Assembly: GCA_964106645.2 (NCBI GenBank)
Contig: OZ067039.1
Source: Podarcis pityusensis
Taxonomy: Eukaryota
Length of the DNA stretch: 64,000 nt
Reading direction: 5' to 3' (one strand)
The position numbers are program-made. Of this stretch, positions 58,901 to 64,000 are shown piece after piece. Numbering within the stretch: the first letter of the stretch is position 1; every line of letters begins with the position of its first letter.

Positions 58901-61900
58901 CCATTTTTATTCAGCACAGTGACACACATATTTCAAAGCCAGGAGCTTCTTCAGCTAATAATGAAAGGGCTTACATCCCATTTGTACGTAGGCAGATGGG
59001 CTGTTTTGACCGCATTCATTTGCAGTCCTTGAACAGATAAGAACTCCAAGTCCTCTTAATGCTACTGAACTATTGACACAAAGAACGTGTTTATCCTCTG
59101 CTGCCGTGCTGCCGTGCAAGGTAGAAAAATCGGCAGCTGCCCAAGGGTCCATTGTTTATAAGGTTTCTCGAGGGCATTCAGGTAACCTGGCTGTGATGTT
59201 TTCACTTTGACACCGCTTATGCAATTTGGCAATCGGCCGGTCTAACAATACCAGCTCGCAACACTGGATTCCCCTCTGCATGTGCATCTTGGATTGTGGT
59301 GGGAATGGGGGTGGGGAAGAGGTTGTACGCAGACCACATAGCAACAATGAGCAATATGGGCCCCTCCAGAAGTTGCTAGACTACAACTCCAGTCACCCCT
59401 GACCATCAGCTATCCTGTTTGGGCTGATAGGAGTTGAAATCCTAAGCACACTTAGACAGCTGCAGGTTCTTAACCCTAGGAAAGGGATCTTGAGGATGGG
59501 GTTGATAGCTCAATGAGAGCATCTGTCTGTGCCAGTTTTGAAGGAGTTGGATTTCACTTTTGCTTACAATATTGAACGGGGACAACAAAGTTCCTAAGCC
59601 ACCTAGGACGGTAAAATAAGGTAAGCGGCACATTCCCTTTCCTTGTCTCTCCCATCAGATATGCAGTCAACTTGCTATCGAAGAACGCTCTCTGCATTTG
59701 GAGCAGGTGTAAAATCTCTGCCCAGATCAAAGCCAGGGGGAAACGCTTTCTATCCGTTTAGAGCCAAGGAGGATGAAAACATCACTGAACTGGTTGACTC
59801 TTGTGTCAGTCATGAAGCCACTTCCTCCCTCCTTGGAACAGCTTTTCAATTAAAAGATTTAAATCAAACAAACATGCAAAGAAAGGCACACAAAAGTCTG
59901 CCTGAAGGCTGGAGGGGATGGTGAAGTAGAAACGAGCACTGGATTTGGAGCAAGTGCATGTATCATTTGAGGAGCAAAATCGGAGGGAAAAACAAGCATT
60001 AAAAAACCGAAAGGGGACCTCTATTTGAAGGCAAATCTGTTGGCTTCCCAAACGTAGGGGACATTGGCTCTTCTTTCAGCCAAGGCATTTTTAATATGAG
60101 CTGCAAGTGCTTCTCTGGCTCCCCCCCCCCCATTGAAATGACTGGAATTCACCCGGGCTGCAACTGTGTGACCAGGGGCCCTCTGCTGGTCAAGCCTGAG
60201 ACATCAAGGCAAATGCTGATTATGTTGGTTTTGGTTTGATTCGTCCTTCCACCATCCCTGAGCCATTGCAAGCAAAGGGTCTGTGCTTCCCATTGATCTA
60301 GGGGCAGGGATGCACATTGCAAAGTGGGGAAAGTGTCAGCATCGCCCTAGAGCCAGTGCACCAACTGGACTCATGCACCTCAACCCCGACTGGGCTAGGC
60401 GAGCTGGGTAGCACCGCCAGAGACCTCCTTTCTCACAGGAAACGGTCACAGTGCTGTGGACTCACAGCTCAGAGCTGAGAGCACCGGATTCACTGTCTCA
60501 ATAATACAGTCATTGCGCAGCAGAGTTTTGCAGAGTCTTGCAGAGTATAAACCACTCGGAGAGCAGCTCTGTAGAATATCTTCCTTTTATTCTATAACTA
60601 CAACTATGATACAAAACTACATACAGAGCTAAATATTCTAAGCATAAATCAATGCTACACTGAGAGTCTGCAGCTGCTCTTAGCAGCAATCTTATCTCTA
60701 GGATCTCTAACACTCTCACTCTCTCCGATACACTGACTGACTGACTCTCTCTCACACACACAGTGATATGTTGCTGGGCAGAATAAGTAGATAGGCAGGA
60801 CACGCCTCCTGCTCTCTGGAGAGTCAGCAGAGACCATCAGGAGACCATCAGGAGATTCTTGGGTATGGGAGGGGTGAAATCTCCTCATCCTCCCCCATTT
60901 CATCCGACCATTTCAAGAATCTTTAACATAACTGCAATTTGCACATACACTCCAAAAGTTGTTCTCTGCTTACAACCTTGGTTAACATATCTGCAGGTAT
61001 CTCTCTCCCGGCATATAAAACACTTTTACAATACCATTGAATAAGCAGCTTCTGGAAAAATCTTCACACACATTTCTTCCTTTCAAATACAAATTGACAT
61101 TTCTAATTAGGCAGATTTGAACAAATCATTTTTCAGAACTCAAATACACGCTTTCCTTCAAATATCAGGTAAGGAAATAAATAAAGCGTTTTGTGCTACT
61201 ACTCTCAGCACACTTCATGCTAGGTTTGAAAACCCCACCAGAGTTGCTCGTGACCGCAGTCTTTGCAAACTCTTCAGAAAACCTTTTCGGTGGTACACCC
61301 TTGGTTGTTCTCTCGGACCTGCGCAGAACTCTTTGATCCTCTTGTTCTGGTGCTTCCTCCTCTTTGGGAGAATGGGGAGCTAAAGTATATGAAGCTGCTA
61401 AGTCTGAGTCAGCGTCAGACTCACCTGAGGCTTTTGGGCTCTGATAATCTGTGCCATCATCTGGAACTACATTGGCATCAGGATTATCACCACCAACAAC
61501 ACTTGCCTCCCTCTTAACTTTCTTTGCCCCTTTTGCACCATCATCACAAATGGGATGGCACTGAAAAACACCAACTCTGTCCCATTGTGGATTGTCATCA
61601 ATACTCCTGGTCAGCCTTATGGTTTTCGTGTCTGTGATCAGAACACGATAAGACCCTTTCTCATATCCTAGGAAAACACCATGTTCTCCACGCTTGCTCA
61701 GTTTGTCACCCTGCGAGGTGTGCACCCAAACCTCCGAACCAAAAATTTTAAAATGCTTTACACATGGCATTCTTCCGTGAAGCATCTCATATGGGGTGCA
61801 ATTTGTACTAGACTGGTACCTCCTGTTATACACATGACAGAAAAACGAAAGAGCTTCAGCCCAATAGGGATTGGGCAGCCCCGAATCATGTAACAGTGTT

Positions 61901-64000
61901 CTGATTCCTTGCTGCAGGGTCTGGTTTACTCTCTCACATAAACCATTCTGCCAGGGTGATCTGGGCGTGGCCGTCCTATGCTCAATGCCCTGTTCAGAAA
62001 GAAAACTCTCAAACTCTTCTGAACAAAACTCTCCAACCTTGTCTGTGAAAAGAAAACGTACATTCTCATTATGTACATTTCTGAGCCATTTACAAAACTG
62101 GCGAAACTTGGTAAAGGCTTCAGCCTTTTTCTGCAGCATATAGACCCAAACATATTTCGAATAGGAGTCTATCAGAACCATGAAAAACCTTGAATTGCCT
62201 CTAGAGAGCGCTAGAGGCCCCACTAAGTCTGCATGAATGACTTCATATGGTTTCTTGGCCTCTCTCCCAGACTCTGTACCTTTGGGAGCTTGCCTTGCCT
62301 TACTCTCTGCACAAGAAACACATTTCATGTGGTAGGGACATTCTTTCAACTTCATACCCTGAACCATATCAGGCATTTTTGCCACAGCCTGGAAATTCAA
62401 ATGACCATAAATACGGTGGTAATAATGAATACATTGGTCATGCAACTTCTCATTCTTATCCACAGACAAGTTGCAACACTCTTTCTCAGTTGCTTCTGCA
62501 GTGCCTGTACCTGAAACAAAAGGCAATTGGTACAATCCATTTACACATTTTGCATACAGAATGAGCTTGCCATCTCTAAGAATTTCACAGCGAGATTTAG
62601 CAAACACCACCTTAAACCCTTGACGATCAAGCTGGGAAACACTCAACAAATTGTCCTGAATATCAGGTGCATACAGGACATTCTTAATAGTTGCATTCAG
62701 GCTCTTTAAGAACACAGTTCCCTGAGCCACACTCGTGAGAACTGTCCCATCTGCTTGATGAATTGCTTTCTCTTGCTTCTCAAGCTGAACAAAGAGATTC
62801 TTATCTTTGGCCACGTGGTTTGAACAGCCAGAGTCGACCACGAAGAAACTCCGCCCACGTTGACTGGAACAGCGAGAGATCAAGGCCTTTGAAGTAGCAG
62901 GTGCTTGGGGATTTCGTCCTCCTCCGCCTCTGCCTCTGAAGTTTCCCTTCTTCTTTGAAGACTTCTTACACTGGAAACTCAAATGGCCTTGTGCTCCACA
63001 CGAAAAGCACCGCTTCAATTTCAAAGCTTTAACAGCAGCAGTTTCACTTTCATTTTCCCCTGCTGAAGACTCAGGCACATTTTCAAGCACATTTTTAACA
63101 GCACAGTCCCGGCTTTCGCTAACAGCCTGTCTGCGATCCCACTCATTCAGAAGCACGCTAGACACATAATCTTCTGTTAGCCGGTCAGAAGGCATTGTGG
63201 AAATCTGGGCAGCTACTCCATCATAAGACTCATCTAGGCTATTGATCATCAGCATTGCAAACACAGCCTCTGAAATAGCCAGGTCTCGCTGAACAAGGTC
63301 CTGTCTGAGACGCTTTAATTGAGATAGATGGCTAGGCAAATCACCACCTTTCTCCAACTGCAGCCTGCACAGCTTCTTAAAGAAAATCACACTGGAACCA
63401 GCATTTTGTCTAAGATGCATATCTCTCAACTTATGCCAAACAGCTTGTGCAGTCTCTTGATCCTCTAAGTTCACCAGCAAGTGGTCTGAAACACTCAAAA
63501 TAATTGTCCCTCGGGCTTTCATATCTGCAGCATGCCACTCAGCCCAATCATCATCATCCTTATCTGGAGGGTCATCTTCTATCGTGTGAAATAGCTTTTC
63601 CCTCTGTAAAAGCGCTTTCATCTTTACTTGCCAAACTGCATAGGTTTCAGGCGTGAGGAGAGGAAAGGACAGAGCCATCTGGCCAGAATGTGCACAGGCC
63701 ATGTCTGCTATTACTTAGAGCAAGACACTTCCCTCGTGCAACACAGATAAAGCCTTGACTCCCTCAGCCACTCTCTCTCCCACTCAGAGCGCAATTAACA
63801 GGCAAACAGGGATGCTATCTTCTTCCTTTGGCAGTCAGCAACATACCTCCATAAATCAAGCAGCAGCAAGAGCAACAGCGGCAGCTTGAACACTCTGCTC
63901 CAAAACAGCTCTGCTTCTGGGCACCGCAAATCAGTCCAGCATGCAGTGTCCGTTCCACCGTCCGGCAATCAGCAACAGAAACCTCTGGCGACTGGGACGC

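What the first reader, a model, noticed from the sequence alone, without database searches (positions are those of the whole stretch)
60888..63702. RT-less Ty1/copia element with an intact Gag-protease-integrase ORF
Seen: 845 codons without stop or frameshift, with a strong Kozak context, CCHC knuckle, DSG protease, HHCC and a complete D,D(35)E triad. The ORF stops just after the RRSxR linker, where copia RT normally begins, and only ~265 bp separate the stop from the PPT. Established: autonomous copia elements need RT-RNase H, roughly 1.5 kb more. Inference: this may be a stable semi-autonomous lineage that supplies its own particle, protease and integrase and borrows RT in trans, possibly one half of a complementary pair. 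Alternatively it could be a domesticated Gag-IN gene. Copia elements are absent from mammals and birds, so such a system in a squamate would be notable.
Basis: partly seen in the sequence, partly recalled or inferred. Interest (0 to 1): 0.75.

Follow-up and report, generated by a model that had tools for sequence, protein, structure and literature searches.

The report
Copia retrotransposon copy missing reverse transcriptase
This is a copy of a copia-type jumping gene that lost its reverse transcriptase through an internal deletion but still has an open capsid-protease-integrase reading frame; this is a known kind of defective element in a group of animals where copia elements are common.

Summary
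Window 61165-63702 (minus strand) is an uninterrupted 845-codon ORF with copia Gag, a CCHC knuckle, a D-S-G protease, HHCC and D,D(35)E integrase motifs and an SH3-like domain, but no RT.

Downstream of the stop, in other frames, lie about the last 45 residues of a copia Pol, ending at a stop 22 nt before a purine-rich tract. So this is an internal deletion derivative of a full-length copia. About 450 residues are missing, including all of RVT_2 and most of RNase H, judged against the 1338-aa relative P0002 (67% identical).

A second public protein, P0001, has the same 845-aa form. It differs at 13 of 845 residues and its last 156 residues are identical. The deletion is therefore neither an assembly error nor private to this sequence. 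I could not count copies.

Three of the 5 substitutions private to this copy hit strongly conserved integrase columns. That fits a decaying copy, not a domesticated gene.

Copia elements are already known to be abundant in squamates (PMC11889832). The finding is ordinary to mildly interesting.

The parts
63703..64000 (-). 5' untranslated leader of the element, cut by the window end. It holds no LTR sequence that is repeated downstream.
   Evidence: nothing in 63703-64000 matches 58900-60925 beyond 10-nt chance words. There is an in-frame stop five codons before the ATG.
60923..63702 (-). The gag-pol gene as it stands, broken. One internal deletion removes all of RT and most of RNase H. What is left of the Pol end is out of frame with the ORF and itself holds at least one frameshift.
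   Evidence: tblastn of the full-length relative P0002 gives three pieces only, all here. A relaxed search gives the same picture. P0002 carries RVT_2 at residues 861-1103. There is no RVT_2 in the window ORF.
61165..63702 (-). Open reading frame of 845 codons plus stop: Gag, nucleocapsid knuckle, protease, integrase and C-terminal linker.
63124..63621 (-). Copia-type Gag (capsid) domain, residues 28-193.
   Evidence: Pfam PF14223, E 2.5e-24. PDB 8vvw_A 'Copia VLP protein', E 2.8e-14, over residues 18-246.
62968..63009 (-). CCHC zinc knuckle, residues 232-245.
   Evidence: Pattern found. Pfam zf-CCHC E 0.0013, 19.1 bits, below the 20.8-bit cut-off.
62614..62844 (-). Aspartic protease (Pol_BBD), residues 287-363, with D-S-G at 290-292.
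   Evidence: Pfam PF22936, E 2.7e-18. Motif located.
62299..62442 (-). Integrase N-terminal zinc-binding (HHCC) region, residues 421-468.
   Evidence: Pfam gag_pre-integrs E 0.0021, below cut-off. H..H..C..C pattern at 421-464.
61897..62256 (-). Integrase catalytic core, residues 483-602, with D492, D554 and E590 (35-residue spacing). One substitution private to this copy lies in a column that is almost invariant in other copia proteins.
   Evidence: Pfam rve E 7.7e-10 and rve_3. PDB 7z0h_W 'Integrase' E 2.4e-16..
61600..61779 (-). Integrase SH3-like C-terminal domain, residues 642-701.
   Evidence: Pfam PF25597, E 6.6e-14.
60923..61056 (-). Remnant of the Pol (RNase H) C-terminal end with its stop codon, not in the frame of the ORF.
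   Evidence: tblastn with P0002: its last 28 residues match at 61% identity (E 4e-06 against the whole window). The 18 residues before them match at 44% in another frame (E 0.001 on the sub-region).
60881..60900 (-). Purine-rich tract (18 of 20 purines), 22 nt after the Pol-remnant stop: the likely polypurine tract.
   Evidence: Read. Tract 60880-60901 is listed, where 54 such tracts occur on this strand in 64 kb, so only the position argues for it.
59443..60880 (-). Stretch that should hold the 3' LTR. Its far end cannot be fixed. It must stop before the unrelated short repeat at 59354-59442.
   Evidence: No second LTR in the window to compare with. Inverted-repeat candidates for LTR ends are weak. 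An AATAAA hexamer at 60586-60591 is seen by eye only.

Best explanation
This is a copy of a non-autonomous deletion derivative of a Ty1/copia LTR retrotransposon. An ancestor with the full Gag-PR-IN-RT-RNase H polyprotein lost about 1.35 kb in one internal deletion, covering all of RT and most of RNase H. Translation now reads from Gag through integrase into a short unrelated tail and stops. The old Pol end and the purine tract remain downstream as non-coding sequence.

The deleted form predates this copy, because a second, slightly different sequence shares it. The most likely way to get two such sequences is that the deleted RNA was copied at least once with RT and RNase H supplied by a related complete element. 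The RNA keeps the 3' cis signal. Whether it keeps the 5' cis signals is unknown, because they lie outside the window. For copia-type elements RT enters the particle as part of the polyprotein, so borrowing it means co-packaging in particles built partly from the helper's protein.

The copy in this window has since taken amino-acid changes at conserved integrase positions. It is best read as an inert, slowly decaying insertion whose ORF is still open because it is young.

Shown: the domain content, the missing RT, the Pol-end remnant, the second sequence with the same end, and the private changes at conserved columns.

Inferred: transcription from a 5' LTR outside the window, trans-supply of RT, the number of copies, and the youth of the copy.
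For: - Domains in copia order, no RVT_2.
- Gag resembles the solved 'Copia VLP protein' and IN resembles a solved 'Integrase' chain.
- P0002 (1338 aa, with RVT_2 at 861-1103) matches the ORF at 67% identity from Gag through the post-integrase linker. It matches again with its last ~45 residues downstream of the stop, in other frames.
- The Pol-end remnant is still 61% identical over 28 residues, against 53% for the ORF's C-terminal linker region (residues 702-845) and 67% overall. So it was coding until recently compared with the split from P0002.
- P0001: 845 aa, 13 of 845 residues differ, no indel, residues 690-845 identical including the tail after the deletion. Both sequences have changes of their own relative to P0002: 5 in the window, 3 in P0001, 4 unclear and 1 at a gap. 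Neither is simply the other.
- P0001's cluster holds 4 member sequences.
- 3 of the 5 window-private changes lie in columns where 46 of 48, 37 of 47 and 41 of 46 distant copia proteins have P0001's residue and 0, 2 and 0 have the window's. None of the 3 P0001-private changes lies in such a column.
- Complete and apparently active copia elements exist in squamates: 85 copies of a 5,832-bp element in corn snake (PMC11948899).
Against: - Trans-copying is not shown. P0001 could be the same locus in another individual or species.
- No RT-bearing relative closer than 67% turned up. Searching residues 690-845 gave 2 hits of 320 candidates among proteins of 464-1479 aa and 0 of 134 among shorter ones.
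- No LTR, primer binding site or target-site duplication could be seen, so the cis signals needed for copying are unverified at the 5' end.
- The counts behind 'decaying' are small (3 of 5).
- Roughly 130 nt between the ORF's last homologous part and the Pol-end remnant match nothing in P0002.
Confidence: 0.6

Rival explanations
1. One-off deletion at a single locus. A complete copia inserted here, later lost its RT region by an ordinary genomic deletion, and was never copied again. P0001 and the other members of its cluster are the same locus seen in other individuals or closely related species.
For: Only one cluster (4 member sequences) carries this form. No other cluster shares the C-terminal region except P0002. 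The difference between the window and P0001 is small (13 of 845) and could fit alleles of a polymorphic species or sister-species orthologues. P0001's contig is a single 3,153-nt piece. No second copy lies in the 64 kb window.
Against: Protein collections hold few transposon ORFs from vertebrate genomes, so a low count says little. Both sequences carry their own changes, which fits separate copies equally well. Nothing tested here separates the two readings.
Confidence: 0.3
2. A lineage kept by selection. This would be an RT-less copia family whose Gag, protease and integrase are maintained by purifying selection because they serve its own spread, with RT borrowed from a partner family.
For: The ORF is fully open with all catalytic motifs in place. 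The same 845-aa form is open in P0001 as well. P0001 keeps the common residue at 86 of 126 conserved columns, close to the 90 of the complete relative P0002. RT-based surveys would not see such a family: PMC11889832 selected candidates by BLASTX against RT/RNaseH proteins (passages).
Against: With so little divergence, an open frame is expected fairly often without selection (my rough estimate, not computed from data). The window copy has private changes at conserved integrase columns. No dN/dS could be computed, because no DNA of relatives is available. No partner with the same LTR or primer binding site is known.
Confidence: 0.2
3. A domesticated host gene that encodes a Gag-protease-integrase protein.
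For: A long open frame with a good start context. NCBI annotates a copia-derived protein without RT as a gene in Podarcis muralis (P0003, 733 aa).
Against: The out-of-frame Pol end and the purine tract, which are retrotransposon 3' features, are still recognisable. Three of the 5 private changes hit conserved integrase columns. P0003 is only 47% identical over 352 residues, and past the integrase catalytic core the two proteins share nothing alignable, so it is not an orthologue.
Confidence: 0.04
4. An assembly artefact: a collapse or mis-join that removed the RT region from a complete element.
For: Repeats are prone to mis-assembly. No reads were available to check.
Against: An independent contig-derived protein (P0001) has the same length and an identical last 156 residues, yet differs elsewhere at 13 positions.
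Confidence: 0.02

Closest known systems
Complete copia elements of squamates, for example the 5,832-bp Copia LTR retrotransposon of the corn snake (PMC4657000, PMC11948899). The squamate copia of the survey PMC11889832 were placed in the 'Mtanga' clade.
   Same: Copia-type Gag and an integrase core domain (corn snake element: PMC4657000; window). Presumably the same host group.
   Different: The corn snake element carries RT and a Ty1/copia RNase H. The window element has neither, apart from a short out-of-frame end. Clade placement rests on RT/RNaseH, which is missing.
P0002, an unnamed 1338-aa copia polyprotein from a public contig (source 'ena')
   Same: 67% identical across Gag, protease, integrase and linker. 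Same domain order. Its Pol end matches the remnant downstream of the window's stop.
   Different: It has RVT_2 (861-1103) and the following RNase H part. It is too distant to be the parent or a likely helper.
Plant non-autonomous LTR retrotransposons that keep part of their coding capacity, for example the barley copia RLC_Giselle (thought to depend on RLC_Inga) and BARE2 (PMC5738225, passages)
   Same: Deletion derivatives of complete elements that keep an intact part of the polyprotein. They are thought to be moved by proteins of a related complete element.
   Different: Giselle lacks both RT and integrase and keeps only gag. Here protease and integrase are kept too and only RT-RNase H is gone. 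The host is an animal. Dependence on a helper is not shown here.
Podarcis muralis LOC144324910 (P0003), an annotated 'uncharacterized protein'
   Same: A lizard protein with copia Gag, protease and integrase core and no RT.
   Different: Only 47% identical over 352 residues. Its Gag is partial and it lacks the SH3-like domain. Past the integrase catalytic core it shares nothing alignable with the window protein. It is a different, more degraded copia lineage or gene model.

Membership tests
Ty1/copia (Pseudoviridae-type) LTR retrotransposon | Copia-type Gag | tested here: met
   PF14223 E 2.5e-24. PDB 'Copia VLP protein' 8vvw_A E 2.8e-14.
Ty1/copia (Pseudoviridae-type) LTR retrotransposon | Domain order protease, then integrase, then RT (integrase upstream of RT) | tested here: inconclusive
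   Protease comes before integrase in the window. RT is absent, so its place is seen only in the relative P0002, where rve (486-586) precedes RVT_2 (861-1103).
Ty1/copia (Pseudoviridae-type) LTR retrotransposon | Copia-type reverse transcriptase (RVT_2) and RNase H | tested here: not met
   No RVT_2 in the ORF. tblastn with P0002 finds none of its RT anywhere in the window. Only the last ~45 residues of Pol remain. The element therefore descends from this family but is not a complete member.
Ty1/copia (Pseudoviridae-type) LTR retrotransposon | Two long terminal repeats, a primer binding site and a target-site duplication | not testable with these tools
   The 5' end lies beyond the window. No assembly could be searched.
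Ty1/copia (Pseudoviridae-type) LTR retrotransposon | Polypurine tract just upstream of the 3' LTR | tested here: inconclusive
   An 18-of-20 purine tract lies 22 nt after the Pol-remnant stop, but 54 such tracts occur on this strand in 64 kb.
Non-autonomous LTR retrotransposon family moved in trans | Lacks a protein needed for its own copying | tested here: met
   RT and RNase H are absent.
Non-autonomous LTR retrotransposon family moved in trans | Several copies with the same deletion at different sites | tested here: inconclusive
   One other distinct sequence with the same end (P0001; its cluster has 4 members). Its site is unknown. Cluster members could not be listed. No other copy in the window.
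Non-autonomous LTR retrotransposon family moved in trans | A complete partner sharing LTR ends and primer binding site | not testable with these tools
   Only protein P0002 (67%) was found. No DNA of relatives is available.
Domesticated transposon-derived host gene | Purifying selection on the protein at this locus | tested here: not met
   3 of the 5 window-private changes lie in columns conserved in 37 of 47, 41 of 46 and 46 of 48 distant copia proteins. The window keeps 83 of 126 conserved columns, against 86 for P0001 and 90 for P0002. Numbers are small and no dN/dS could be computed.
Domesticated transposon-derived host gene | Loss of transposon ends; single-copy orthologues in synteny across species | not testable with these tools
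   The 3' transposon features are still present. Synteny was not checkable.
Mtanga clade of metazoan copia | Placement in an RT/RNaseH tree (PMC11889832) | not testable with these tools
   The domain is missing from the window. No reference sequences of the clade were available to place P0002.

The most novel reading that the evidence does not exclude
Squamate genomes may hold a spreading family of RT-less copia elements that make their own capsid, protease and integrase and borrow only RT-RNase H from a complete relative. Surveys that detect copia through RT would not see such a family. The window copy would be one aged member, and P0001 would lie closer to the active form.
Probability: 0.25. 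Interest if true: 0.5.

Novelty: new member of a known kind. Interest (0 to 1): 0.25.

Why it matters
It matters modestly. Deletion derivatives of LTR retrotransposons that keep part of their proteins are well known in plants. This one shows that the same happens to copia in a vertebrate lineage where copia are abundant and at least one family seems active.

If the RT-less form proves to be multi-copy, two points follow. Copia counts based on RT or RNase H (the method of PMC11889832) would underestimate copia-derived DNA in squamates. The family would also be a natural case for asking, by sequence comparison alone, which proteins a dependent element keeps under selection.

For genome annotation, an 845-codon open frame like this is likely to be called a gene, as happened for a related sequence in Podarcis muralis (P0003). 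It should be flagged as transposon-derived.

Tried and rejected
- Finding the LTRs inside the window. Direct repeats, self-BLASTN of 57000-64000 against the window (7 non-self matches, all microsatellite or a short unrelated repeat) and short-word BLASTN of the leader against 58900-60925 gave nothing beyond 10-nt chance words. The 5' LTR lies outside the window.
- Terminal inverted repeats to fix the 3' LTR end. There were 130 pairs, and none stood out.
- Listing P0001's cluster members to see how many distinct RT-less sequences exist and on how many contigs.
- Looking for a closer RT-bearing relative, or for fragments with the same end, by searching residues 690-845. Only P0001 and P0002 came back among 320 candidates, and none of 134 shorter candidates.
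- The 50%-identity representative library. It gave 72,196 hits at E up to 0.001. Of the 150 best listed, only P0001 is close and all others are 39% identical or less, so it showed no intermediate relatives.
- Rfam and tRNA scans gave nothing in the element.
- A 94-sequence alignment timed out. I used the 50 best hits of the 94 instead.
- Literature searches (full-text library only) found no paper describing an RT-less Gag-PR-IN copia in reptiles. This is not proof that none exists.
- Genome contigs (bacteria and archaea only) was not used because it cannot hold this element.
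Full report
**1.

On the minus strand, window 61165-63702 is one open reading frame of 845 codons from ATG to stop. It is the longest in the 64 kb window by far; the next is 374 aa. The start codon has G at -3 and G at +4, and an in-frame stop lies five codons upstream (read).

Pfam finds the following in this order:
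- copia-type Gag (28-193, E 2.5e-24)
- a zinc knuckle (231-247, weak score, but the CCHC pattern is exact at 232-245)
- the Pol beta-barrel protease (287-363, E 2.7e-18, with D-S-G at 290)
- the pre-integrase zinc-binding region (421-468, with an HHCC pattern at 421-464)
- the integrase core (483-583, E 7.7e-10)
- the SH3-like integrase C-terminal domain (642-701, E 6.6e-14)

The catalytic triad is D492, D554 and E590, with 35 residues between the last two.

Against solved structures, 17 distinct chains match at E up to 0.01. The best is 7z0h_W 'Integrase' (E 2.4e-16, residues 461-689); that this is the yeast Ty1 integrase is my recollection, not in the table. The next is 8vvw_A 'Copia VLP protein' (E 2.8e-14, residues 18-246).

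No RVT_2 domain is found. The window contains no N.

**2.

The closest complete relative in the protein collection is P0002: 1338 aa, unnamed, 67% identical, 98% of the query covered. It has RVT_2 at residues 861-1103 between the integrase and its C-terminus.

A tblastn of P0002 against the whole window gives three pieces only, all inside this element. One covers the ORF from Gag to the linker after integrase (67% identity over 835 columns). Two lie downstream of the ORF's stop, in other reading frames. The last 28 residues of P0002 match at 61% identity and end exactly at a stop codon. The second downstream piece is weak (32% over 37 columns). A relaxed search of the sub-region instead matches the 18 residues just before the last 28 at 44% in a further frame. 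Outer bounds of this remnant are 60923-61056.

Twenty-two nucleotides after that stop comes a tract with 18 of 20 purines (60881-60900). Such tracts are common: 54 lie on this strand in the window. Only its position, where a copia polypurine tract belongs, gives it weight.

The gag-pol gene is therefore broken in this way:
- one internal deletion of roughly 450 residues (about 1.35 kb), which takes all of RT and most of RNase H
- at least one frameshift inside the remaining Pol end, which is also out of frame with the ORF

About 130 nt between the ORF's homologous part and the remnant match nothing in P0002. This anatomy is that of a deletion derivative of a complete element, not of an element that never had RT.

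**3. The remnant dates the deletion, roughly**

The Pol end is still 61% identical to P0002 at the protein level. The ORF's own C-terminal linker region is 53% identical and the ORF as a whole 67%. Non-coding DNA would not have kept that similarity over the time that separates the two lineages. By inference, the Pol end was coding for most of that time and the deletion is recent relative to the split from P0002. A much closer complete parent must have existed, but none was found.

**4. The same deleted form exists elsewhere**

Of 94 proteins with E up to 0.001 (among 7,999 candidates scored):
- P0001 is 98% identical and also exactly 845 aa. It is unnamed, its cluster holds 4 member sequences and its contig is 3,153 nt.
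- P0002 is 67% identical.
- P0003 is 47% identical over 41% of the query (Podarcis muralis LOC144324910).
- The other 91 are 33% identical or less; those that carry a name are mostly from plants and algae.

The window and P0001 differ at 13 of 845 positions without any indel. Over residues 690-845, which include the unrelated tail that follows the deletion, they are identical. Using P0002 to polarise the 13 differences gives 5 changes on the window's side, 3 on P0001's, 4 unclear and 1 at a gap. The two are separate descendants of one deleted ancestor. This rules out an assembly error private to this window.

It does not show transposition of the deleted form. P0001 may be another insertion, or the same locus in another individual or species.

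Searching only residues 690-845 returned P0001 and P0002 alone among 320 candidates of 464-1479 aa, and nothing among 134 shorter candidates. In the library of 50%-identity representatives, 72,196 proteins match at E up to 0.001. Among the best 150, only P0001 is close and the rest are 39% identical or less.

Vertebrate transposon ORFs are poorly represented in such collections, so these low counts are weak evidence about copy number.

P0001's contig length (3,153 nt) is close to the part of the element between the presumed LTRs: at least 298 nt of leader, 2,538 nt of ORF and about 284 nt to the purine tract. That is what an assembler produces when it breaks at repeated LTRs. This is inference only.

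**5. This copy looks like it is decaying**

I aligned the window ORF with the 50 best of the 94 hits; 48 of these are distant copia proteins.

Window-private changes (5):
- Three fall in strongly conserved columns. In the integrase core, 46 of 48 distant proteins have P0001's residue and 0 have the window's. Between core and SH3 the counts are 37 of 47 against 2. In the SH3-like domain they are 41 of 46 against 0.
- The other two lie in the variable Gag-protease linker (16 against 5 of 46, and 1 against 0 of 3).

P0001-private changes (3): all lie in variable columns. P0001's residue is found in 2 of 40, 0 of 44 and 15 of 47.

Of 126 ORF columns that are conserved among the distant proteins, the window has the common residue at 83, P0001 at 86 and P0002 at 90.

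The numbers are small. Still, they are the opposite of what a protein under selection at this locus would show. With so few differences, an open frame is not in itself evidence of selection; that is my rough estimate, not a computation on data.

**6. What could not be seen**

The window ends 298 nt upstream of the ATG. That leader shares nothing with the 2 kb downstream of the purine tract. So the 5' LTR, the primer binding site and the target-site duplication lie outside the window.

The far end of the 3' LTR cannot be fixed. Inverted-repeat candidates are weak. It must lie before an unrelated short repeat at 59354-59442.

There is no second copia-like stretch in the window.

As a result, none of the following could be done: a copy census, dN/dS, LTR dating, or a search for a partner with the same LTR and primer binding site.

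That the window is from a squamate is not verified. The only named close relative is from a lizard.

**7. What is already known**

Copia are absent from birds and mammals (PMC4350176, passages; PMC11889832, passages). [quoted passage not shown]

That survey kept only LTRharvest candidates that hit RT/RNaseH proteins by BLASTX (passages). RT-less derivatives like this one would have been dropped.

A complete 5,832-bp copia caused two colour mutations in corn snakes, with a single nucleotide difference between the two inserts and 85 copies in the assembly (PMC4657000 and PMC11948899, passages). Active RT donors therefore plausibly exist in this group.

In plants, non-autonomous LTR retrotransposons that keep part of their coding capacity and are thought to be cross-mobilised are well described. 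Examples are the barley copia RLC_Giselle, with intact gag but no RT or integrase, next to RLC_Inga, and BARE2 (PMC5738225, passages).

My searches found no paper describing a Gag-protease-integrase copia without RT in reptiles. The library is partial, and I did not open the supplements of PMC11889832.

**8. Verdict**

Best explanation (confidence about 0.6): a young, now decaying copy of a copia deletion derivative that lacks RT and RNase H. The deleted form predates this copy and was probably copied at least once with RT from a complete relative.

Main rival (about 0.3): a one-off deletion at a single locus, seen also in other genomes.

It remains open (about 0.2) but has no direct support. 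A domesticated gene (about 0.04) and an assembly artefact (about 0.02) are unlikely.

This is a new member of a known kind, and interest is low to moderate. The direct functional test lies outside what this report may propose. The copy census and branch-wise dN/dS are the best descriptive substitutes.

Noticed in passing
window 6415-7782 (+): A LINE-type reverse transcriptase (Pfam RVT_1) is split over two ORFs: 6415-6789 (E 1.1e-13, profile positions 2-95) and 6838-7782 (E 2.2e-15, profile positions 107-194). This is a broken non-LTR retrotransposon copy.
   Followed up: partly
window 29530-29904 (-) and 38468-39592 (-): Two ORFs carry C2H2 zinc-finger matches: 124 aa (zf-C2H2 E 1e-08) and 374 aa (weak, E 0.003). 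They may be exons or remnants of zinc-finger genes, so the element may sit in or near a zinc-finger gene cluster.
   Followed up: no
window 49434-49498 (+): An Rfam tRNA match at 31.4 bits, just above the gathering score of 29. ARAGORN does not call it. It is probably a tRNA-derived repeat or a pseudogene.
   Followed up: no
window 59354-59442, 4976-5050, 32975-33032, 43784-43849: A short dispersed repeat of about 60-75 nt, 76-78% identical, in both orientations (SINE-like). One copy lies just beyond the presumed 3' LTR of the copia element.
   Followed up: no
window 58782-58825 and 55554-55600: An (AGA)n microsatellite of 14.7 units, with a reverse-complement counterpart 3 kb away.
   Followed up: no
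P0003 (Podarcis muralis LOC144324910): A copia-derived Gag-protease-integrase-core protein without RT is annotated as an ordinary gene in a lizard genome. Past the integrase catalytic core it shares nothing alignable with the window protein. It is probably a transposon remnant caught by gene prediction.
   Followed up: partly
window 15079-16384 (-): Two adjacent ORFs of 257 and 171 aa on the same strand have no Pfam match. Their nature is unknown.
   Followed up: no
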